Below are positions 1 through 20,696 of a DNA stretch of 21,524 nucleotides, in pieces. The notes under the pieces are model-generated. The model made no database searches and had not been told where the DNA came from. It was given only the letters and a program-made list of their open reading frames with translations. The position numbers and the translations under genes were made by a program. Source of the stretch: a virus (Duplodnaviria > Heunggongvirae > Uroviricota > Caudoviricetes); IMG/VR virus record IMGVR_UViG_2663762839_000009, positions 1 through 21,524 of that record. The stretch is one strand, 5' to 3'. How positions within the stretch are numbered: the stretch's first letter is position 1; each line of letters starts with the position of its first letter.

Positions 1-564
1 CACATTAATTATATTGAAGTAATGTTTTAAGGTTTGTAATGCCCCTGGAACAGTACTAATTTAAAAAATTTCTGCTGGGCAATAGCACAATTGTCACCCG
101 ATATCACTCTTACATTTTTTGCACTTTCTGTGACCTCGACAACTGGCATTTCTAATCAGCAATTGTATTGGTATTTGGCGTATTACCCCTGAAACCACTC
201 ATGCGCTGGTCCCTCACTATTCAATGATAATCAGCGAAAACCAACCACACCAGTGTCCACTGCAACCACTTGCGCTCAGAGCGACAAACGATTGGCTAAA
301 GAGTCGGCGACAGTCGAGTATCATCGAACCAATAGTGGTTGTTTCCGTCATAATTTCATCAGGTTGCTATTTTGTCGCCAGCTGCCTTTATCCCCTCACA
401 TTTATAGTGGGATTATTTTGCATCGTTACACGATAAAAGGTAGGATTCTGCGCCGACAGTTATACCCATAAAGAATAATGGTGAATCTTGTCATCGCCAG
501 GATGAATAAACATTGTTCATGGCGACATAAAAGACTTTTTTCATTAAAGCAATCAGGGAGCGCA

Positions 565-2064
565 ATGAGTAAACACAACACCGACACTTCAGAGCAACAC
601 GCTGCGAAACGCCGCTGGCTTAATGCCCACGAAGAGGGATATCACAAAGCAATGGGCAATCGTCAGGTGCAGATGATCGCCATTGGCGGTGCGATTGGTA
701 CTGGTTTGTTTTTAGGCGCGGGAGCCCGACTGCAAATGGCGGGGCCGGCGCTGGCACTGGTCTATTTAATCTGCGGCCTGTTTTCGTTTTTTATTCTGCG
801 CGCGTTGGGTGAGCTGGTATTGCATCGCCCTTCCAGTGGCAGCTTTGTCTCCTATGCCCGTGAGTTTCTGGGTGAGAAAGCCGCTTATGTTGCCGGTTGG
901 ATGTACTTCATCAACTGGGCGATGACCGGGATTGTTGATATTACCGCCGTCGCTCTGTATATGCATTACTGGGGTGCGTTTGGCGGCGTGCCGCAGTGGG
1001 TCTTTGCGCTCGCTGCACTTACCATCGTTGGCACCATGAATATGATCGGCGTGAAATGGTTCGCCGAGATGGAGTTCTGGTTTGCGCTTATTAAAGTGCT
1101 CGCCATTGTGACCTTTTTGGTCGTGGGTACGGTGTTCCTCGGTAGTGGTCAGCCGCTGGATGGCAACACCACTGGCTTTCATTTAATCACCGATAATGGC
1201 GGCTTCTTCCCCCACGGTTTGCTGCCTGCGCTGGTGTTGATTCAGGGCGTAGTGTTTGCTTTTGCCTCCATTGAAATGGTGGGTACAGCTGCCGGAGAAT
1301 GTAAAGATCCGCAGACCATGGTGCCTAAAGCGATTAACAGTGTGATTTGGCGTATTGGCCTGTTTTACGTCGGCTCCGTGGTGTTGCTGGTTATGTTATT
1401 GCCGTGGAGCGCGTATCAGGCGGGGCAAAGTCCGTTCGTGACGTTTTTCTCTAAACTGGGTGTGCCATATATCGGCAGCATTATGAACATTGTGGTGCTG
1501 ACCGCTGCCCTCTCCAGCCTGAATTCAGGTCTGTACTGCACCGGACGTATTCTGCGCTCAATGGCGATGGGCGGTTCCGCACCGAGTTTTATGGCGAAAA
1601 TGAGTCGTCAGCATGTGCCGTATGCCGGGATTCTGGCGACACTGGTTGTGTATGTCGTCGGCGTATTCCTCAACTATCTGGTGCCGTCGCGCGTATTTGA
1701 GATTGTGTTGAACTTCGCGTCGCTGGGAATCATCGCTTCATGGGCGTTTATCATCGTGTGCCAGATGCGCCTGCGTAAAGCGATTAAAGAAGGCAAAGCA
1801 GCGGATGTCAGTTTTAAACTGCCTGGCGCGCCCTTCACTTCCTGGCTGACATTACTGTTTTTACTGAGTGTCCTTGTGCTGATGGCGTTCGATTACCCGA
1901 ACGGGACTTATACTATCGCGGCGCTGCCGATTATCGGTATTCTGCTGGTTATAGGCTGGTTTGGTGTGCGCAAACGCGTTGCTGAAATTCACAGCACTGC
2001 GCCCGTAGTCGAAGTAGATAAAGAAAAACAGGATATTGCATTTAAGCCTGAAACGGCGAGTTAA
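565..2064 (+). CDS. ansP: L-asparagine permease (APC-family amino acid transporter)
   Basis: Long ORF 478..2064; the translation from the internal ATG at 565 (MSKHNTDTSEQHAAKRRWLNAHEEGYHKAMGNRQVQMIAIGGAIGTG...) is recognised as AnsP. AGGGAG Shine-Dalgarno about 8 nt upstream of 565. Multi-pass hydrophobic transporter profile. The upstream 29 codons of the ORF are probably not translated. Confidence 0.85.
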   Translation: MSKHNTDTSEQHAAKRRWLNAHEEGYHKAMGNRQVQMIAIGGAIGTGLFLGAGARLQMAGPALALVYLICGLFSFFILRALGELVLHRPSSGSFVSYAREFLGEKAAYVAGWMYFINWAMTGIVDITAVALYMHYWGAFGGVPQWVFALAALTIVGTMNMIGVKWFAEMEFWFALIKVLAIVTFLVVGTVFLGSGQPLDGNTTGFHLITDNGGFFPHGLLPALVLIQGVVFAFASIEMVGTAAGECKDPQTMVPKAINSVIWRIGLFYVGSVVLLVMLLPWSAYQAGQSPFVTFFSKLGVPYIGSIMNIVVLTAALSSLNSGLYCTGRILRSMAMGGSAPSFMAKMSRQHVPYAGILATLVVYVVGVFLNYLVPSRVFEIVLNFASLGIIASWAFIIVCQMRLRKAIKEGKAADVSFKLPGAPFTSWLTLLFLLSVLVLMAFDYPNGTYTIAALPIIGILLVIGWFGVRKRVAEIHSTAPVVEVDKEKQDIAFKPETAS

Positions 2065-2909: not shown

Positions 2910-3791
2910 TTATATACTTGCAGCCGTCACCCATGCTCCATTTAACAGATACTGCAACGGCCGGTAATACACGCCGCCGACGTTATCTGCCGTATTCTTA
3001 CCGACATCCTGTACTTTAATTCCGGTAAGAACATTGCCGCCCCCCAGATTCAGATCCCAGCTTTCCCATGTTCCGGGCATATGTGCGGTCACCGACCCCA
3101 GTCTTATGGCGGTTACTGTTCCTGATGAGATAGTGATATCCTGCGTCCCGTCAAAGGGAACACCATTAATTGTGTGGGCATTTGCCAGCCTGTTCGCGGC
3201 AACGGCGGTGCCGTCCGATGGCAGGGCATTCGCCGCCCTGTTTACCGTTTCCCGTAAACCGACGTTATCGATAAAAGCCCCTTTATCCGGAATGTCTGCG
3301 CCGTTCTGCTCCCTGCGCAGGTAACGGTTATCACCTTCGCTTTTGCTGTAAACATCCAGATTATTACGGGCGGTTCCCTTATTCTCCAGGTCGGCGAGAT
3401 TCTGATCCTTCGCCAGGGCATTAACGTCAGCGGGACCAAGACTGTTTTTTGTGGCAAGCGTCCCCAGACCAAGATAACCACGGGCCAGACGCTGGGCCTC
3501 CGCACCGGCATCAGCAATTTCTTTCAGGTTATTTTTCCGGGAAAAGGCATTCGCAGCGATAATGGCTTTAATGGACAGCGTAAGCTGGTTTAACTGCGCC
3601 TTATCCGGCTGAATACTGGCTTCAGCCAGAATATTCAGCAGTTCGGCCTGGAGAATATTCAGCCAGTCCTGACCAATCCAGCTGATACCTTTTTGTCCGT
3701 CACCTTCGGTAAACCAGGTGGTGGTATTACTCTGCGCCGGTGCCAGCGCAGGCATATTCGCCACGCCGGAATTATTATCAACATGAAACAT
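2910..3791 (-). CDS. Phage tail fibre protein
   Basis: 293-aa ORF. C-terminal region contains a phage tail-fibre repeat-like motif ([20 protein letters not shown]). ATG overlaps the stop of the upstream baseplate-gene fragment (TAATG), as for baseplate/tail-fibre coupling in Mu-like phages. Confidence 0.7.
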
Positions 3792-11602: not shown

Positions 11603-12025
11603 TCAGAAAAGCCGTGGCTGCGTGCGTTCCTGATGCAGGCGACGCTGGTTGCGGATAACGGAGTAAATCTGCGTCTCTGACATCTGGTAGTGGCGGCGCA
11701 GGGTTTCAATTTTTTCGCCCTGGCTCCAGCGGGAAAAAATTTCATTATTGCGCAGTTCGGTGAAAAGGGATTCACCGACCGGGAGATAATAACCACGCCC
11801 GCCCATGTACCCGGCCTGTGCGGCTGCAACCTTACGGGCAAGCATTCCCGCCTGAGCAGGTTCAATCCCCTGACGGTGCAGTTCAGCACTGATCACATCA
11901 ACCAGGTCCCGCAGCGTGCCGGGCCAGTTCTTTTTCAGCTCATCATCAGGAATATCATCCAGACGGTCAATCAGCGCGTGCAGCTGTTCGCTGTCACCAA
12001 ACATGCTCATCTGTGTTTCAGCCAT
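11603..12025 (-). CDS. Mor/C-family transcriptional activator
   Basis: 140-aa ORF with a C-terminal HTH-like region (...ETLRRHYQMSETQIYSVIRNQRR...) in the Mu position between gemA and the lysis gene; preceded by a terminator-like hairpin. Confidence 0.75.
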   Translation of the reverse strand: MAETQMSMFGDSEQLHALIDRLDDIPDDELKKNWPGTLRDLVDVISAELHRQGIEPAQAGMLARKVAAAQAGYMGGRGYYLPVGESLFTELRNNEIFSRWSQGEKIETLRRHYQMSETQIYSVIRNQRRLHQERTQPRLF

Positions 12026-12095: not shown

Positions 12096-12608
12096 TTAAA
12101 AGGGGGAGGATTCTTCATACAGCCTGCAAACGCGCTCATAACTCATCACTGTACGCGCTGGCATCCCCAGCACATCCAGCATCTTGCGGCGGTGCCAGCG
12201 TTTGAGACGCTCCAGCACATCAGAGGCCAGCGCGGGGTGTTGTTCCAGCCACTGCCAGTTAGCCACACCTTCGCCGCCGTTCTGAGCGGCCGTCTGCGAT
12301 TTCACCCAGCGGTTAAGGGCTGTTTCCCCGCCATCAGAGATAAAGCCCTGCCGGTGCATCACCTTCCAGATGGCGCGAATTTTGGCGGTCACCGTACCCG
12401 GTTTTAAGGCCCGGTTAACCGGCTTCTGACGCACTTTAAAACCGCGTTTTTTGAAAACATCCAGCACGCGGGATAACTCATCCGGTGACATATCCCGGCA
12501 ACTGGGTTTGCCGGTGGCTGCCAGTAGTACGGATGTGTAGGTCTCATGGTCAAGCTGTAGATCGCGTTTTGCGACATGTATTAAGGTAATCAGGGAAGCG
12601 CGATTCAT
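12096..12608 (-). CDS. gemA: GemA-like protein (Mu gp16 family)
   Basis: 170-aa ORF (MNRASLITLIHVAKRDLQLDHETYTSVLLAATGKPSCRDMSPDELSRVLDVFKKRGF...) at the end of the early operon, immediately before the Mor/C-family activator. Confidence 0.75.
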   Translation of the reverse strand: MNRASLITLIHVAKRDLQLDHETYTSVLLAATGKPSCRDMSPDELSRVLDVFKKRGFKVRQKPVNRALKPGTVTAKIRAIWKVMHRQGFISDGGETALNRWVKSQTAAQNGGEGVANWQWLEQHPALASDVLERLKRWHRRKMLDVLGMPARTVMSYERVCRLYEESSPF

Positions 12609-14596: not shown

Positions 14597-15112
14597 TCAC
14601 CCCCTGACTCGCTTTTCAGCAGCATAAAACTCATCAGACAGTATTTCGGTCATTTTCTGTTTTGCGGGTTTTACGCCGCACTGAAGGTAAATCACATCGT
14701 CAACGCAGAACCACTTCACAGGGCCAAACAGGATTGCCGAGAAATCAATACCCAACCAGAACAACAGCGCATCGGTTCTGGCATACGTGACGGGCGAATA
14801 TTCACGCCACAGACTGTTCAGTTCATCAGAGGCAACACGCAGGGTTTTAGGGATACGTGATGTGCGCGGTGTGCAGCTCCAGCCATTCGACGCAGTCGGT
14901 TTTCGCCATAAGTCGCGATGAAAAGGATATTTGTCCTCCGTAAAACGCAGTCCCTTAAAGTAAAATCCACTGATACCGGATACAAATACCGACCGGCACG
15001 CAACATTCAGCACGGCCTCAAGGCGTTTTGCCTCATCCTTAACTTTCTGGCAGTCCTGCTGGTATTTTTGCCACGCAGCCAGCGCGGAAGGGTTTGATGT
15101 TTTAAAGAACAT
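14597..15112 (-). CDS. Hypothetical protein (171 aa)
   Basis: ORF whose ATG overlaps the stop of the upstream gene (TAATG at 15112); no recognisable motif. Confidence 0.5.
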   Translation of the reverse strand: MFFKTSNPSALAAWQKYQQDCQKVKDEAKRLEAVLNVACRSVFVSGISGFYFKGLRFTEDKYPFHRDLWRKPTASNGWSCTPRTSRIPKTLRVASDELNSLWREYSPVTYARTDALLFWLGIDFSAILFGPVKWFCVDDVIYLQCGVKPAKQKMTEILSDEFYAAEKRVRG

Positions 15113-15645
15113 TACGCCACCTCCGCAGATATCCCGGCAGGCGCTGCTGTCCGGTCAACAATCAGGTAGCGCAGAACATGTTCAGTGATATTCCAGCCGC
15201 TTAAACCGCAGATAATGACGCCCAGGCGTATGTCGATATACGCCATCACAAACTGGGGCACGCCTTCTTTCATGGCCTGCTCATCAACTTCTGCCACCAC
15301 ATAAACGGTTTCACAGGTCAGAACGCCCTGAGCAAATTCCCACGCCATCGACGGAATATCATGCCCCTCAATCCATGGCAGGGATTTTCTGAAGCCGCAC
15401 CACTGAACATCATCAGCCGCAGATTCCTGGCTGCATTTGCGACGAACCGGCTGCACCGGGCGGGGGCGCGGAATATCATAAAAACCGTTACATTCCGTCA
15501 GCACGCCTGCATCAACCGCATCACGCAGAAAATAAACCATGGAGGATGGCGGCATATTCATTTTTTCAGCCAGTACACCGCAGGTCAGGCGGCCATAAAT
15601 ACACAGCCAGTTTTTAACCCCTTCAAGCACTTTTGCATCAATCAT
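15112..15645 (-). CDS. Hypothetical protein with N-terminal winged-helix-like region
   Basis: 177-aa ORF, first gene after the AT-rich spacer downstream of gam; N-terminus GRLTCGVLAEKMNMPPSSMVYFLRDAVDAGVL resembles a wHTH. Confidence 0.5.
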   Translation of the reverse strand: MIDAKVLEGVKNWLCIYGRLTCGVLAEKMNMPPSSMVYFLRDAVDAGVLTECNGFYDIPRPRPVQPVRRKCSQESAADDVQWCGFRKSLPWIEGHDIPSMAWEFAQGVLTCETVYVVAEVDEQAMKEGVPQFVMAYIDIRLGVIICGLSGWNITEHVLRYLIVDRTAAPAGISAEVA

Positions 15646-15790: not shown

Positions 15791-16321
15791 TTATTTATTC
15801 AGTCCGGCGTCCTGTTCAAAAGGCTCGACATAAAAACTTTCAGCGCCTTTATTCACCTTGATACCGGCAATGCCTTTCACAGCATCCGGCTCCGCCAGGA
15901 CGGCTTCCTTGTTCACTTCCTCTTTCGTGCGGATGAAACGCTCAAGCCCCATACGGCGCAGCATTTCAATCACACCTTCCACATCACGGCTGACGCTGCA
16001 TGATGGCGTTCCCAGCCGCCATGACACCGTTCCGGTGGTCAGATTGGCTGTTTTGGTTTTGCCGCCGTTCGTCAGCTCATCACGGTTGGTTTTGCACCAG
16101 TCCTGAATCCCTTTAAAAAGCACTTTGATTTGCTTTTTAAGATTTTCAATCTGCGGCGTATAACGGGCGGTGATTTCTGCCACTTCGTCATTCATCGCCG
16201 TTTCCAGGCGCAGCGCCTCTCGCTGAATATCTCCCAGGGTGCGGATATCACGGCTGACTTCTTCCCGGGTCTGCGGTGCCGCCTCGGCTGCGGCCTTTAA
16301 TTTTGTAACGCGTTTAGCCAT
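15791..16321 (-). CDS. gam: Gam-like host-nuclease inhibitor (Mu Gam/Ku-like DNA end-binding protein)
   Basis: 176-aa ORF; ...EVSRDIRTLGDIQREALRLETAMNDEVAEITARY...WCKTNRDELTNGGKTKTANLTTGTVSWR...FIRTKEEVNKEAVLAEP... is recognised as Mu Gam. Confidence 0.8.
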   Translation of the reverse strand: MAKRVTKLKAAAEAAPQTREEVSRDIRTLGDIQREALRLETAMNDEVAEITARYTPQIENLKKQIKVLFKGIQDWCKTNRDELTNGGKTKTANLTTGTVSWRLGTPSCSVSRDVEGVIEMLRRMGLERFIRTKEEVNKEAVLAEPDAVKGIAGIKVNKGAESFYVEPFEQDAGLNK

Positions 16322-16332
16322 TTTGTTTTTCC

Positions 16333-16626
16333 TTATTGCAGTGTGCCTGATGCTTTATGCACGCGGTGGCGTTTAATGATGGCATCCGCTCCAAAAGACT
16401 GTGCAGATGCCTGAAATTCCGCTGAGAGAAACTGAATAATTGCAGGACTGTGATACTGGAGAATACTTGCATAAACGTCACAGAGTGACGTCGGCCTGTT
16501 ATCCGTATCACGTTCTGTTTTCACATCCACTCCAATCTTTTCATGCACTTCAACACAGTCATTGCCTGCCAACTTTTCGTCATGCGAAACATGATTAAAT
16601 TCAAAAATAACGCGTACTTTGCTCAT
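16333..16626 (-). CDS. Small hypothetical protein, paralogue B of a tandem pair
   Basis: Start ATG at 16626 with AGGGG Shine-Dalgarno (the ORF track starts further upstream at 16653). N-terminus MSKVRVIFEFNHV... parallels MSKVVRIIFEYKEDV... of the upstream ORF. Confidence 0.5.
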   Translation of the reverse strand: MSKVRVIFEFNHVSHDEKLAGNDCVEVHEKIGVDVKTERDTDNRPTSLCDVYASILQYHSPAIIQFLSAEFQASAQSFGADAIIKRHRVHKASGTLQ

Positions 16627-16630
16627 GGAA

Positions 16631-16903
16631 TTACCCCTGTTGATTAAATTCATTACCGTTAATAACCCCGGAAGCCATGCCTCTGTCTTTCATGAATGCA
16701 CTGGCTTTCATTGCCACAAACTCTGCGAAGTTTCTGCTTTCTGCCAGCATAACCACCCCAAAAATCATGGCGGGTCCATTATCTTTCTTCTTTATTCCGG
16801 TTGAACGTATATCCAGACTTACCCCTCTGTGCGTGCTGCCATCAGAGTTTTTGCAGATAACATCTTCCTTGTATTCGAAAATAATGCGTACGACTTTACT
16901 CAT
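16631..16903 (-). CDS. Small hypothetical protein, paralogue A of a tandem pair
   Basis: 90-aa ORF with GAGGA Shine-Dalgarno; shares N-terminal and internal motifs (AEF.A.KAS.F) with ORF 16333..16626. Confidence 0.5.
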   Translation of the reverse strand: MSKVVRIIFEYKEDVICKNSDGSTHRGVSLDIRSTGIKKKDNGPAMIFGVVMLAESRNFAEFVAMKASAFMKDRGMASGVINGNEFNQQG

Positions 16904-17181
16904 CCTCTGGTCCTCGTTCTGTTTGGATAACTGACCCGGCGTCTAACCTCACGGCAGAACCGAATCATGGCATTAAAGGCTTCTTCCTCCGTCACCGCTT
17001 CCGGTATCCCCGGAACCAGTAACTGCTCCTGTTCATCACGTCCATGACGCGCCATAACCTCAATCACATGCCGTACCGTGGCAGGCTTTCCGGCAACTAT
17101 CGGCAATGCACCTTCCGGCAGGACGTAACCAAACTCAATAAGACCACTCGACCACGCCCATGCAATGAGATTTTTTTTCAC
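16900..17181 (-). CDS. Hypothetical protein (93 aa)
   Basis: ORF in the tightly packed early operon between B and gam. Confidence 0.45.
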   Translation of the reverse strand: MKKNLIAWAWSSGLIEFGYVLPEGALPIVAGKPATVRHVIEVMARHGRDEQEQLLVPGIPEAVTEEEAFNAMIRFCREVRRRVSYPNRTRTRG

Positions 17182-17182
17182 C

Positions 17183-17437
17183 TCACACCTCCCAGTAAAC
17201 CGTGCAGCCGCTGATGCGGGTGGCCTTCACACGGCGGCGCAGGCCGTTGGTCTGTATGGTGATTTCAATTTCACCGGTTCCCTGCACGTTGCCTACCGGC
17301 GGCGTGGTTTTCAGTGCAAAACGTTGCGGATAGCGCTTACTGCGTTCCAGTACCGCACCGGCAAGTTCGGTCAGACGGCGCGCGCTGTTCAGGGAGTCGA
17401 ATAAATTCATTTTGTTACCGCAGGATTGCATATTCAT
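17183..17437 (-). CDS. Hypothetical small early protein (possible kil-region gene)
   Basis: ORF 17183..17449; the internal ATG at 17437 is preceded by GAGGTG, so this is the likelier start. Position downstream of B. Confidence 0.4.
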   Translation of the reverse strand: MNMQSCGNKMNLFDSLNSARRLTELAGAVLERSKRYPQRFALKTTPPVGNVQGTGEIEITIQTNGLRRRVKATRISGCTVYWEV

Positions 17438-17449
17438 ATAACACCTCAT

Positions 17450-17677
17450 TTAGCTGACTTGTTTCGCACCAACAGAACGGCATATTCCGCTGTAAACTTC
17501 TGTCGCACCTTCGCGATCAAGTCCGGCAGATATCACCATTCGTGTGCGGTCATTAAATTCAAAAAGTAAATCGCCACATTCTTTATTTTCGGCCAGTGAA
17601 ATCACCTTCACGTTATCGAAATTAACCAGGTAAAAGCGTCCGTAAATATCAGGAATATTAAATACCGCCATAATCAC
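17450..17677 (-). CDS. Hypothetical small early protein (75 aa)
   Basis: ORF starting 4 nt inside the end of the B gene (translational coupling). Confidence 0.45.
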   Translation of the reverse strand: MIMAVFNIPDIYGRFYLVNFDNVKVISLAENKECGDLLFEFNDRTRMVISAGLDREGATEVYSGICRSVGAKQVS

Positions 17678-18615
17678 ACCTGTGAGAGTAATTCAGGGTT
17701 GGTATAAACCTCTTTAAAGGCCGCATTAATATGTTTTTCTGTCAGCGCCGCGCCTTCACCGCTGGCGGTGAGCCACGCCTGGTTAAGCGTATGTGTCAGA
17801 ACGCGTAACGCTCCCGGCTTTTCAGCGATAGCCTGCATGACGGCCAGCTCGGCCTCACCACTGATCCCCCACGCCATGGCAATGGCCAGCACATCCGCCT
17901 TTTTGGCCTTGCGAAGTTGTTTTGTACGGGCAAGACGGCTGAACAGGCGCGATAAATCATCAAAGGCGCGGCGTCCACCTTTAAACAATCCGCGCGGGTT
18001 ACCAATAAGCACCATCCCGATCCCCGTGGCGTCCTGAATTGCCCGGAGTTGCTCCAGACCGTCAATACCAAGATGATCCGCCTCATCCACAATCACCAGT
18101 CCACGCGTTCCCATCAGGCGACGGCGGATGGCGCGGGATAATGCCCCTTTGTTCGCGCGGGTGTAATCAATCCCCAGCGCATCGGCCAGCTCCAGCAGAC
18201 ACTCCGTGACGCTGGAGTGCGCGGGTGACAGGGTGATCATCCAGGTGTTTGGTTGCTCCTGGCAGTAATTACGGGCAGTGGCCGTTTTACCCACACCCGG
18301 TACGCCCACAATAACGTTAATACAGCCCATCAGGCGAACCGCCTGAAACAGTGCGCGCAGCTCCTGGACTGTCTGAGTTTCCACAAACTGCGGCGGTTCC
18401 GGCAGTGCGCTTTGTTTATTCCAGTTCTCATACCAGGAGCGCAGGGAAGCAGCCACAGCAGCGTTATCGCCTTTATATTTTCCCTTACGGAAAGCCGATA
18501 ATGTGCCGTCGGAAATTCCCGCCTCTCTGGCGATGGCATACTGCGTCAGTACGCCGCCATCAATAAGTTCATCAATGGTCTTGATTACATCGTTAATATC
18601 GGTCATATTATTCAC
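17674..18615 (-). CDS. MuB-like transposition target-capture ATPase
   Basis: 313-aa ORF with N-terminal HTH-like region and Walker A motif GVPGVGKT; located directly downstream of the transposase gene as in Mu. Confidence 0.85.
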   Translation of the reverse strand: MNNMTDINDVIKTIDELIDGGVLTQYAIAREAGISDGTLSAFRKGKYKGDNAAVAASLRSWYENWNKQSALPEPPQFVETQTVQELRALFQAVRLMGCINVIVGVPGVGKTATARNYCQEQPNTWMITLSPAHSSVTECLLELADALGIDYTRANKGALSRAIRRRLMGTRGLVIVDEADHLGIDGLEQLRAIQDATGIGMVLIGNPRGLFKGGRRAFDDLSRLFSRLARTKQLRKAKKADVLAIAMAWGISGEAELAVMQAIAEKPGALRVLTHTLNQAWLTASGEGAALTEKHINAAFKEVYTNPELLSQV

Positions 18616-18688: not shown

Positions 18689-20446
18689 TCAGGCCAGCGG
18701 ATCACTTTCTTTTAATTTCGCTTCGAGCAGTTGCAATCCCCGCTGGAAATTACGCTCGTATTCTTCATCAGGTTCATCGTCAGCGACCGGTTGCTGAACG
18801 GTCACCGTATTACCCACAGGGCGGTATATGTTTTCCAGCCAGGGCTCCTGCGGCTTGTGCTCCAGCACGTTGACAACCTCATCCTCGACATCACGGATTT
18901 TTTCCTCTGCGCGTTTACGCATGCCTTTAAGGCGCTGCTGCTGTTTGTAGTATTCCGCGCTGACAGGGAAGGCTTCGCGTTTATTGCCGTCCCATACCGC
19001 CTCGCAAATCACGCTGCCATCCGGGCGGCGCACGGTAATTCGTTCGGCATCATGAATGTCATAGCTGATAAGTACCTTACGGCCATGCTCGTCACGCAGC
19101 TCGGGCGCGTAGTAAATATTATTCAGCCAGCGTATTTCACAGCGTCTTACAGGGCGCTCCACCATCGGCCGGAACATATCCCGCAGTTCAACATCGGACA
19201 GCCATTCAATTTCCGTGTCCTCTTCCGCCAGGCGTTTTTTTCTGAACTCCGCCGGGCTGTAATGTTTACCGTTCGGCTTCATGGGTAATTCATCGTGCGG
19301 CCGGTTGTTGTACCACTCAACACCGTCACGAATGGCATCAATCAGTTCAGACCAGGACGGTAAATCACGCATCGCTGACTGCTGCCGGGCGTTCAGCCGT
19401 TTGCCCTGTTGCAGGGCACTGAATGCCGAGCGTAAATCGCGGTTGGTTTTACGTAACGTCTCGCGATCTGCTCCTTTCCCGAAATAGGTGCGGTATTTAC
19501 GGGCTATGCGCATCGGTAATGTGCGGTTAAGCCGTTCGATAATGCCCCGTCCCTGCGGATTACCGGCAATCCCTGTCGGGTGATTAATCCCCAGTCGTGG
19601 CAGTACCCGGCCTTTTTGTTTCACCACTTCCGGCAGTTTCTTCATTGCGCGGCGAATGGTGTCATAAGAGGGCATGATATCGAGCATATAAGGCTCATCA
19701 GCGTGCCGGTGCTGCCATTCAGCAACAAAATCCTCGTAAGCCTCGGTCATTGGTCGGCCGTTTGACTGGCGATACTGCGCCAGAAATTCGGGCAGCCAGT
19801 TAATATCTTCGGCTTTTATTTCCTGGCGTTTACCCGGTGCCAGTAAAAGCAGGCGTTCAGCGGCGTTCTGTGCCTTGTTAAAGGCCGCAATCCAGCGTTT
19901 CAGCGTGATTTCACTCAACGCGCGGCTGTTTCCCTTTTTGGCGTTCGCCGTCTCAACCATTGCCACAATGCGCTCGTCCAGTTGTGATCGTGCCAGGCTG
20001 TTAACGAGGAACCGGATAGCCTTAGCGCAACTAAAGCCGGGTTGTTGCGCGATTTTCAGCACCTCGCTGACGATCGCTATTCGTGCCTCTGCCACTTTAC
20101 GTTGGTTTTCAGTCAGGGCATTGAGGCGTTCGACCATCAGTTGGGGTGATCCGCGATATGCCTCCACCGCATCAACCACGGCAGGTGAGCGTCTGGCCTT
20201 TGTCACCACCGGAGCCGGTGATTCATCGGCTTTTTGCGTCATCAGTTGCAGGGCGTAGCGTTCACGTAATGCCTGCTGCGTCACTTCAGGTAAACAGTCG
20301 ATGCTGTATTCAGTTGCTTTAGAGCCTGAGCGACGACGGGAACAACAGCTTTTCCCTTGTACGTAACGTTGTAATGCCTGGCGAATACCTTTTGTTGTAG
20401 CAGGCATTCCGGGCGCGCCAATCAGTTCTTTTGCAATGACATACAT
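18689..20446 (-). CDS. MuA-like transposase
   Basis: 585-aa ORF following ner. Contains integrase-core-like motifs (...GNPQGRGIIERLNRTL... and ...WYNNRPHDELPMKP...) and a C-terminal region resembling the MuA C-terminal domain (...RPDGSVICEAVWDG...IYRPVGNTV...DDEPDEEYERN...). Confidence 0.8.
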   Translation of the reverse strand: MYVIAKELIGAPGMPATTKGIRQALQRYVQGKSCCSRRRSGSKATEYSIDCLPEVTQQALRERYALQLMTQKADESPAPVVTKARRSPAVVDAVEAYRGSPQLMVERLNALTENQRKVAEARIAIVSEVLKIAQQPGFSCAKAIRFLVNSLARSQLDERIVAMVETANAKKGNSRALSEITLKRWIAAFNKAQNAAERLLLLAPGKRQEIKAEDINWLPEFLAQYRQSNGRPMTEAYEDFVAEWQHRHADEPYMLDIMPSYDTIRRAMKKLPEVVKQKGRVLPRLGINHPTGIAGNPQGRGIIERLNRTLPMRIARKYRTYFGKGADRETLRKTNRDLRSAFSALQQGKRLNARQQSAMRDLPSWSELIDAIRDGVEWYNNRPHDELPMKPNGKHYSPAEFRKKRLAEEDTEIEWLSDVELRDMFRPMVERPVRRCEIRWLNNIYYAPELRDEHGRKVLISYDIHDAERITVRRPDGSVICEAVWDGNKREAFPVSAEYYKQQQRLKGMRKRAEEKIRDVEDEVVNVLEHKPQEPWLENIYRPVGNTVTVQQPVADDEPDEEYERNFQRGLQLLEAKLKESDPLA

Positions 20447-20447
20447 A

Positions 20448-20696
20448 TCATGACGCCTTTCTCATATAGCTCTTAACCTGGTATCGACTGGGCCAGATTT
20501 CTTCAGGTGATACCCCAAGAGCATCAGCAATTATTTGCTGATACGGTCGGCAAGGAGTACGTAATACGCTTTTCAGCGAATCCCTGCTGTAACCAGCCTT
20601 TAAAGATAAAGAGCGCAGTGATAAGCCAGCCATGTGTAAGCGCGCCTTGATGATTTCAGGCGGCCAATCGTGATCTGAAACTTCTCTTCTACTCAT
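20448..20696 (-). CDS. ner: Ner-like DNA-binding regulator
   Basis: 82-aa ORF (...DWPPEIIKARLHMAGLSLRSLSLKAGYSRDSLKSVLRTPCRPYQQIIADALGVSPEEIWPSRYQ...) recognised as Mu Ner / E. coli Nlp family; AGGAAG Shine-Dalgarno; first gene of the early operon. Confidence 0.85.
   Translation of the reverse strand: MSRREVSDHDWPPEIIKARLHMAGLSLRSLSLKAGYSRDSLKSVLRTPCRPYQQIIADALGVSPEEIWPSRYQVKSYMRKAS

What the first reader, a model, noticed from the sequence alone, without database searches (positions are those of the whole stretch)
16333..16903. Tandem pair of paralogous small proteins in the early region
Two adjacent ORFs with good ribosome-binding sites begin MSKVVRIIFEYKEDV... and MSKVRVIFEFNHV... and share an internal AEF.A.KAS.F motif. 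This suggests a duplicated, diverged small-protein family between the B/kil region and gam, a position typical of host-takeover or nuclease-inhibitor-type functions. Diverged tandem small-protein paralogues are a common signature of inhibitor families, though that is an analogy and not evidence.
Basis: seen in the sequence. Interest (0 to 1): 0.45.

Follow-up and report, generated by a model that had tools for sequence, protein, structure and literature searches.

The report
Two divergent small Mu-like early genes
Two neighbouring small genes in the early operon of a Mu-like E. coli prophage are real, very distant relatives from one highly variable family confined to Mu-like prophages of enteric bacteria; nobody knows their function, and the anti-defence idea is untested.

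Summary
The two ORFs exist exactly as described: ORF-A at 16631-16903 (90 aa) and ORF-B at 16333-16626 (97 aa), both on the minus strand. Both have Shine-Dalgarno sites, are tightly coupled, and lie between MuB/Kil and Gam.

Direct A-B similarity is real only in the first ~11 residues. Homology still holds through intermediates, even without the N-terminus: A~C-type (3e-8), C~S-type (5e-7), S~B (2e-17). Both proteins are predicted to have the same beta-hairpin plus long-helix topology.

The family is tiny, with 11 representatives among 1.84 billion proteins. It occurs only in Mu-like prophages of E. coli, Salmonella, Klebsiella and Serratia, always in the same slot upstream of gam or DUF3164. 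It was single-copy in all five relatives examined from other genera and in one E. coli variant.

In E. coli the slot is a diversity hotspot. Alleles assort independently, dN/dS is about 0.3, and conserved DNA flanks the variable gene body.

No Pfam, NCBIfam, PADLOC, PDB or fold match was found. The function is unknown. An accessory inhibitor of a host or defence factor is the best guess, and it is inference only.

The parts
16631..16903 (-). ORF-A, 90 aa (MSKVVRIIFEYKEDV...). Member of phrog_4107. Found here only in E. coli.
   Evidence: ORF list and sequence. PGAP CDS WP_000049428.1 in identical DNA. phrog_4107 E=1.7e-54. 42 relatives, every one that a source names is E. coli. dN/dS 0.32. AF2 pLDDT 81 with E6-18, E24-35, H44-73.
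16333..16626 (-). ORF-B, 97 aa (MSKVRVIFEFNHV...). Member of phrog_2230.
   Evidence: PGAP CDS WP_000049310.1. phrog_2230 E=1.8e-38. Exhaustive HMMER search found 11 representatives in 1.84e9 proteins. dN/dS 0.30 and pi 0.17-0.28. AF2 pLDDT 84 with E4-20, E24-39, H48-58, H60-77.
16912..16915 (-). Shine-Dalgarno-like GAGG, 8 nt upstream of the ORF-A ATG. The ORF-A ATG (16901-16903) overlaps the TGA stop (16900-16902) of the upstream phrog_1518 gene.
   Evidence: Read directly from the sequence.
16634..16638 (-). Shine-Dalgarno-like AGGGG, 7 nt upstream of the ORF-B ATG. It lies at the 3' end of ORF-A, ending at the A stop codon (16631-16633), which is 4 nt from the B start.
   Evidence: Read directly from the sequence.
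16871..16903 (-). Conserved 5' segment of ORF-A (codons 1-11, MSKVVRIIFEY; beta-strand 1). Together with its upstream flank it is near-identical DNA to the 5' end of the single-copy B gene of strain STEC299.
   Evidence: DNA comparison. (lowest column entropy, 0.82 bits, in beta-1).
16597..16626 (-). Conserved 5' segment of ORF-B (codons 1-10, MSKVRVIFEF). It carries nearly all of the direct A-B similarity.
   Evidence: Pi drops to 0.094 here against 0.28 in the adjacent 60-nt window.
16900..17181 (-). Upstream neighbour, a phrog_1518 protein. It is labelled 'host nuclease inhibitor' by name only, and it is present in some relatives and absent in others. Context only.
15791..16321 (-). Downstream neighbour, Mu Gam (PF07352). 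Context only.
   Evidence: E=5.5e-42. 57% identical to Mu Gam.

Best explanation
ORF-A and ORF-B are two real, co-transcribed and translationally coupled early genes of a Mu-like transposable prophage. They are very distant homologues within one small protein superfamily (PHROGs 4107 and 2230). The predicted fold is a long beta-hairpin followed by a long helix and a disordered tail.

The family is confined to Mu-like prophages of Enterobacterales. It occupies a fixed slot just upstream of gam (or of DUF3164 where that replaces gam). The slot behaves as an exchangeable cassette. The last bases of the upstream gene plus the first ~10 codons (strand beta-1), and the junction with the downstream gene, are conserved DNA. 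The gene body between them is replaced by alleles only 25-60% identical. In this E. coli lineage two such divergent alleles sit in tandem: A resembles the C-type and B resembles the S-type.

Inferred, not shown: the proteins are dispensable accessory factors of the semi-essential early region. They probably act as small oligomeric binders or inhibitors of a variable host factor, most plausibly a nuclease or an anti-phage defence component. Carrying two alleles would then broaden the range of targets.
For: Real genes:
- Intact ORFs with SD sites and coupling, and the same CDS calls by PGAP.
- The pair is present in 226-232 of 5426 complete E. coli genomes. ORF-B follows ORF-A at a constant 277-280 nt offset in 38 of the 40 IMG/VR loci recovered with A; one of the other two lacks B and one is degraded.
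- dN/dS is 0.32 for A and 0.30 for B.
- No promoter or terminator signal above chance inside the operon.

Homology:
- hhalign A-B E=6e-6, A-C 5e-8, C-S 5e-16, B-S 2e-21.
- With the first 12 residues removed: A-C 3e-8, C-S 5e-7, B-S 2e-17.
- The B-family HMM ranks 6 of 9 A-family proteins above 20,000 shuffles.
- The full-length alignment needs almost no gaps, and the predicted strands and helices line up.

Fixed slot, usually single copy.

Cassette behaviour:
- Pi is 0.17-0.28 over B and 0.06-0.14 over A, against 0.006 over the adjacent phrog_1518 gene.
- Mean identity to the window is 86-88% for A and B, against 97-99% for gam, kil and phrog_1518. A and B alleles assort independently.
- The 5' DNA is conserved across alleles.

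Accessory context:
- Mu itself has unrelated genes in this position.
- phrog_1518 is present or absent among relatives, and an IS element has inserted in A in one strain.
- A Lar-like restriction-alleviation ORF occupies the neighbouring position in a Serratia relative.
Against: - Direct A-B similarity outside the N-terminus is not significant, so homology is transitive.
- The A and B alignments are shallow (Neff ~1.5), and hhalign probabilities are only 81-95% for links involving A.
- The two AF2 models used overlapping alignments, so their shared topology is not independent evidence.
- dN/dS ~0.3 shows purifying selection, not positive selection. The high diversity of B comes with high dS (0.62), which indicates allele replacement rather than fast in-place evolution.
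- The pI values (9.25 for A, 6.27 for B) argue against a DNA-mimic mechanism.
- The loci used for the diversity estimates were picked to span the identity range, so they are not a random sample.
Confidence: 0.55

Rival explanations
1. The proteins are auxiliary factors of Mu replication or transposition, or of DNA-end protection. For example, they could be partners or modulators of Gam/DUF3164 or of MuB, rather than inhibitors of host defence.
For: They lie in the early operon directly upstream of gam or its DUF3164 replacement, and are tightly coupled to it, in every relative examined. Beta-strand 1 and helix 1 are conserved across the family.
Against: They are absent from Mu, SfMu and the Yersinia Mu-like phages, which transpose normally; no tblastn hit was found at E<=1. 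The family persists whether the neighbour is Gam or DUF3164. Hypervariability and allele shuffling are unusual for a partner of well-conserved proteins (gam 97.5% identity). One lineage lacks A, and IS disruption of A is tolerated.
Confidence: 0.15
2. They are host-shutoff or toxic early proteins like Kil, or exclusion factors acting against competing phages. On this view they are not counter-defence proteins.
For: They are neighbours of a Kil-like gene in the semi-essential early region. They are small and have no homologues, as is typical of host-takeover proteins. Allelic diversity could track variable host or competitor targets.
Against: No similarity to Kil families. Early-operon genes are repressed in a lysogen (established Mu biology), so exclusion expressed from the prophage state is unlikely. 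No transmembrane or signal features (GRAVY -0.2 and -0.3).
Confidence: 0.15
3. A and B are unrelated proteins. They share only an N-terminal segment because that segment is a recombination joint or translation-initiation region copied between neighbouring genes.
For: Nearly all the direct A-B similarity lies in residues 1-11, and nothing is detectable without them. The 5' DNA, including the upstream flank, is shared between A and the single-copy B gene of STEC299.
Against: The chain A-C (3e-8), C-S (5e-7), S-B (2e-17) holds after removing the first 12 residues. BLASTP of A against the S-type protein P0066 aligns residues 27-69 with 30-75 at 30% identity. The predicted secondary-structure order is the same and is in register.
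Confidence: 0.07
4. One or both ORFs are not expressed genes, but chance ORFs or decaying remnants.
For: Frameshifted, truncated and fused variants exist in the databases, for example P0030, P0034, P0039 and P0052.
Against: Full-length ORFs are kept at 57-100% identity in hundreds of genomes with dN/dS ~0.3. They have SD sites and coupled starts. Homologues of conserved length (93-99 aa) occur in other genera.
Confidence: 0.02

Closest known systems
PHROG families phrog_2230 and phrog_4107 (phage proteins of unknown function)
   Same: ORF-B matches phrog_2230 (E=1.8e-38) and ORF-A matches phrog_4107 (E=1.7e-54), both full length. The Salmonella, Serratia and Klebsiella relatives also fall in phrog_2230.
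   Different: PHROGs keeps the two as separate families with no annotation. Here they are linked as one superfamily through intermediates. No function is attached to either.
Accessory genes of the phage Mu semi-essential early region (kil, gp6-gp9/E5-E8, gam)
   Same: Same operon position between B and gam. Small, tightly packed, dispensable-looking early genes. The flanking genes are true homologues of Mu genes: gam 57%, gp11 68% and gp12 55% identity.
   Different: None of Mu gp6-gp9 is detectably related to A or B. A weak hit of Mu gp7 to phrog_2230 (E=0.009) was not reproduced.
Variable anti-defence cassettes at fixed slots in Mu-like Pseudomonas phages, such as the anti-CRISPR loci of JBD30-type phages (from my own knowledge, not tested here)
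   Same: Small unrelated or highly divergent ORFs swapped at one conserved genomic position. Sometimes several sit in tandem, flanked by conserved genes.
   Different: Those loci lie in the late (head) region and are marked by an aca regulator gene. No sequence or fold similarity was found, and no inhibitory activity is known for A or B.
Lar-like restriction alleviation proteins (phrog_599)
   Same: A Lar-like ORF sits next to the family gene, in the position ORF-A occupies here, in a Serratia Mu-like prophage (L007).
   Different: Lar-like proteins are CxxC zinc-finger proteins. A and B have no such motifs and no similarity to them. The resemblance is positional only.

Membership tests
phrog_4107 (ORF-A) and phrog_2230 (ORF-B) | Full-length significant match to the family HMM | tested here: met
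   A: E=1.7e-54, residues 1-90 against profile 1-90 of 90. B: E=1.8e-38, residues 3-97 against profile 1-88 of 89.
Single superfamily containing A and B (paralogy claim) | Statistically supported homology beyond the shared N-terminal 11 residues | tested here: met
   The direct A-B comparison is not significant without the N-terminus (P=0.12). The chain through intermediates is significant: A-C 3.2e-8, C-S 5e-7, S-B 1.8e-17. The predicted beta-beta-alpha topology is the same and in register.
   C-terminal halves score 19 against 18.1+/-3.5 in shuffles. The motif occurrences fall in different alignment columns.
Mu Gam / host-nuclease inhibitor (PF07352) | Match to the Pfam Phage_Mu_Gam model (Ku-like fold) | tested here: not met
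   No Pfam hit for A or B at E<=0.1, and none for 94 family members at E<=1. The true Gam is the next gene downstream.
Kil septation inhibitors (PF26843, phrog_2679) | Match to the Kil models | tested here: not met
   No hit. The Kil-like gene is at 17183-17449.
DNA-mimic anti-restriction proteins (Ocr/ArdA type) | Strongly acidic protein and fold or sequence similarity to known mimics | tested here: not met
   pI is 9.25 for A and 6.27 for B. No PDB sequence hit apart from one chance match at E=0.016, and no informative fold match.
Lar-like restriction alleviation (phrog_599) | CxxC zinc-finger motifs and an HMM match | tested here: not met
   No PHROG hit other than 4107 and 2230. No CxxC pairs in either sequence.
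Known anti-phage defence proteins (PADLOC-DB) | HMM match | tested here: not met
   No hits at E<=1 for A, B, the S-type or the C-type.
Mu gp7 (E6, phrog_10252) | Detectable sequence homology | tested here: not met
   hhalign P=0.086-0.57. gp7 is not in the top 400 of 20,001 sequences scored with three family HMMs. The only signal is a weak gp7 hit to phrog_2230 at E=0.009.
Anti-defence or host-factor inhibitor (functional class) | Demonstrated inhibition of a host defence or host factor | not testable with these tools
   Needs genetics or biochemistry. Only circumstantial context is available.

The most novel reading that the evidence does not exclude
The family is a previously unrecognised counter-defence or host-factor-inhibitor family specific to Mu-like phages. 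It would be organised as an exchangeable cassette whose conserved first ~10 codons and flanks act as recombination handles. The E. coli lineage would have stacked two divergent alleles to widen its inhibitory spectrum.
Probability: 0.3. Interest if true: 0.6.

Novelty: new member of a known kind. Interest (0 to 1): 0.33.

Why it matters
If these proteins do inhibit host nucleases or defence systems, they would give a new inhibitor family. They would also give a clear example of allele stacking at a recombination-prone slot in transposable phages, with many natural alleles (four subfamilies and dozens of 90%-identity clusters) available for specificity mapping. As it stands, the result tidies the annotation: two "hypothetical proteins" and two separate PHROGs belong to one lineage-restricted superfamily with a predicted beta-hairpin plus helix fold.

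Tried and rejected
1. Direct A-B homology from the internal AEF motif. Rejected: it is not above shuffles and is out of register.

2. Relationship to Mu gp7 (E6). It was suggested by eye (MAKVIIEIKN...) and by a phrog_2230 hit at E=0.009. It is not supported by hhalign or by HMM-versus-shuffle tests. gp7 relatives are too uniform (>=88% identity) to build a profile.

3. Other Mu early proteins (gp5-gp14). No similarity.

4. Domain and family libraries (Pfam, NCBIfam, PADLOC). No hits.

5. Solved structures by sequence. Only one chance-level hit, to eL31 at E=0.016.

7. Recent gene conversion as the cause of the N-terminal identity. Codon comparison (5 of 7 degenerate codons identical) is not decisive. 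The better-supported reading is a conserved 5' joint shared by all alleles.

8. RNA elements or internal promoters and terminators. There were no Rfam hits, and promoter and terminator counts were at the shuffle expectation.

9. The scan of one genome per species (genome contigs) found nothing.

10. Literature searches on the Mu early region, anti-defence, the protein accessions and the PHROG ids found nothing about these proteins.

Full report
**Context.** The window carries a Mu-like transposable prophage, read on the minus strand.
- Pfam identifies a Ner-like HTH protein (20448-20696), MuA (18689-20446) and MuB (17674-18615).
- Downstream it identifies Gam (15791-16321), a Gp11_C protein (15112-15645), GemA (12096-12608), Mor (11603-12025) and a lysozyme.
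- PHROGs adds a phrog_3375 protein (17450-17677), a Kil-like protein (17183-17449) and a phrog_1518 protein named "host nuclease inhibitor" (16900-17181).
- Identical or near-identical DNA occurs in 232 of 5426 complete E. coli genomes, and in Mu-like insertions inside two Stx phage records.

**The observation.**
PGAP calls the same CDSs.
- A has GAGG 8 nt upstream of its ATG, and its ATG overlaps the stop of the upstream gene (ATGA).
- B has AGGGG 7 nt upstream and starts 4 nt after the A stop.
- No promoter or terminator signal exceeds the shuffle expectation, and there are no Rfam hits. The two genes are part of the long early operon.

**Is the similarity real?**
- BLASTP of A against B gives 22% identity over 76 residues, E=6e-4.
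- In a shuffle test the full-length local score is 50 against 23.9+/-4.3 (1 of 5000).
- After removing the first 11 and 10 residues it drops to 31 against 22.5+/-4.0 (p~0.04).
- In every family alignment the two AEF strings fall in different columns.
- So the direct similarity is essentially MSKVVRIIFEY against MSKV-RVIFEF, and the internal motif is chance.

**Homology through intermediates.**
- An exhaustive HMMER search with the B family found only 11 representatives among 1.84 billion proteins. They include full-length 93-98 aa proteins at 25-30% identity.
- A word-indexed search with a joint alignment then returned many Salmonella proteins, plus Serratia and Klebsiella proteins.
- These fall into four subfamilies: S (72 clusters at 90% identity; Salmonella and Serratia), A (22; E. 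coli), C (8; Klebsiella and Salmonella) and B (7; E. coli).
- Profile-profile comparisons give A-B 6e-6, A-C 5e-8, A-S 6e-4, B-C 1e-4, B-S 2e-21 and C-S 5e-16.
- With the first 12 residues removed, A-B is lost (0.12), but A-C (3e-8), C-S (5e-7) and B-S (2e-17) remain.
- A B-family HMM ranks six of nine A-family proteins above 20,000 shuffled decoys.
- AlphaFold2 gives the same topology for both proteins. A has pLDDT 81 with strands 6-18 and 24-35 and a helix at 44-73. B has pLDDT 84 with strands 4-20 and 24-39 and helices at 48-58 and 60-77. These elements are in register in the joint alignment.
- The two models share most of their input alignments, so this is consistent evidence rather than independent evidence.
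- I conclude that A and B are true but very distant homologues.

**Where the family lives.**
- Every relative I examined sits in a Mu-like early region in the same slot, immediately upstream of gam or of a DUF3164 gene that replaces gam.
- It is usually preceded by the phrog_1518 homologue. It is single-copy in all of these relatives (L003-L008, L010).
- One E. coli lineage (STEC299) also has phrog_1518 followed by B only. Another has A+B but lacks phrog_1518. A third has an IS66 element where A should be.
- Of the 40 IMG/VR loci recovered with A, B follows at a constant 277-280 nt offset in 38. Of the other two, L079 has no B match and L080 is degraded.
- Phage Mu, SfMu and the Yersinia Mu-like phages have no detectable member.

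**Cassette behaviour.**
- Among six colinear E. coli loci, nucleotide diversity is 0.17-0.28 over B and 0.06-0.14 over A. It is 0.006 over the adjacent phrog_1518 gene and about 0.03-0.09 over gam.
- Across the IMG/VR loci, mean protein identity to the window is 86% for A and 88% for B. It is 97.5% for gam, 97.4% for kil and 98.6% for phrog_1518.
- There are discrete allele classes: A at ~100, 95, 88 and 80% identity, and B at ~100, 93, 82 and 58%. They combine freely.
- dN/dS is 0.32 for A and 0.30 for B, against 0.07 for gam and 0.17 for MuB. B has a high dS of 0.62. This pattern indicates purifying selection on alleles that are exchanged, not runaway in-place evolution.
- At the DNA level, the upstream flank and first ~10 codons of A are nearly the same as those of the single-copy B gene of STEC299. 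This includes a codon (GTC/ATC) that the window's B lacks.
- S-type and C-type alleles likewise share nearly identical first codons and flanks, although their gene bodies are only 25-30% identical.
- Column entropy is lowest in strand beta-1 (0.82 bits) and highest in the distal hairpin, the loop before the helix and the tail (1.9-2.2 bits).
- Because A is closest to the C-type and B to the S-type, the tandem pair is best read as two old alleles of one slot brought side by side, not as a recent duplication.

**What they do.**
- Nothing known matches. Pfam, NCBIfam and PADLOC gave no hits. PDB sequence search gave no relevant hit.
- No literature was found.
- The proteins are soluble, with pI 9.25 (A) and 6.27 (B), so they are not acidic DNA mimics.
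- My best inference is that they are dispensable early accessory proteins that bind a variable host target. The reasons are the operon position beside Kil and Gam, the allelic diversity, the presence/absence variation of genes in the slot, and a Lar-like restriction-alleviation ORF in the neighbouring position in a Serratia relative.
- Only the gene structure, homology, distribution and diversity are shown. The inhibitor function, the oligomeric state and the "two alleles broaden the range" idea are all inference.

**Rivals.**
- A role with Gam/DUF3164 or in transposition is possible, because the adjacency is conserved. It fits poorly with the family's absence from Mu and its hypervariability.
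- A Kil-like toxic role or an exclusion role cannot be excluded.
- The idea that A and B share only a recombination joint is contradicted by the chain of profile matches that do not depend on the N-terminus.
- Non-coding status is contradicted by conservation, dN/dS and translation signals.

**Verdict.** This is an uncharacterised, lineage-restricted, hypervariable small-protein family already catalogued without annotation. It is a reasonable but unproven anti-defence candidate of moderate interest.

Noticed in passing
L007:3815-4000 (Serratia Mu-like prophage): An uncalled 64-aa ORF with CxxC motifs (MASTDDMSNFKPCPFCGD...) lies between kil and the family gene. It hits the Lar-like restriction alleviation family phrog_599 at E=1.6e-5. 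It occupies the position that ORF-A has in the window.
   Followed up: partly
protein P0030 (E. coli; relates to window 16333-16903): A natural in-frame deletion fuses ORF-A residues 1-49 to ORF-B residues 80-97, joined at a shared FG. The two parts are not in homologous register, so this looks like a microhomology deletion.
   Followed up: no
L013:3415-5750 (E. coli 23CRST049): An IS66-family element (ISEc22) is inserted where ORF-A should be, directly upstream of an intact ORF-B and gam.
   Followed up: no
window 16900-17181; L012; about a third of loci L041-L080: The upstream phrog_1518 gene is named 'host nuclease inhibitor' with no evidence that I could find. It is present in some relatives and absent in others. 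Many relatives keep only a ~22-aa remnant before ORF-A.
   Followed up: partly
L003:4303-4941, L008:3303-3941, L010:3304-3942: In Salmonella and Klebsiella relatives, gam is replaced at the same position by a 212-aa DUF3164 (PF11363) protein. The family gene stays directly upstream.
   Followed up: no
window 478-2064 (+) and 2910-3791 (-): A host amino-acid permease gene (PF00324, E=2.5e-137) lies less than 1 kb from the last phage-like ORF. Only about 18.5 kb of Mu-like DNA (repressor side through the head genes) is in the window. The prophage may be truncated or rearranged on its tail-gene side.
   Followed up: no
window 16871-16943 vs L011:1992-2079; L003, L008 and L010 gene starts: The 5' flank and first ~10 codons are near-identical DNA across alleles whose gene bodies are only 25-30% identical. 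ORF-A carries the 5' end, with its extra codon, that the single-copy B gene has in strain STEC299. This suggests conserved recombination handles around a variable cassette.
   Followed up: partly
window 18689-20446 (-): The MuA-like ORF as listed is 585 aa, shorter than the 660-694 aa transposases in the related loci. The DDE_2 Pfam domain did not appear among its hits at E<=0.001. The true start or the integrity of the gene was not checked.
   Followed up: no
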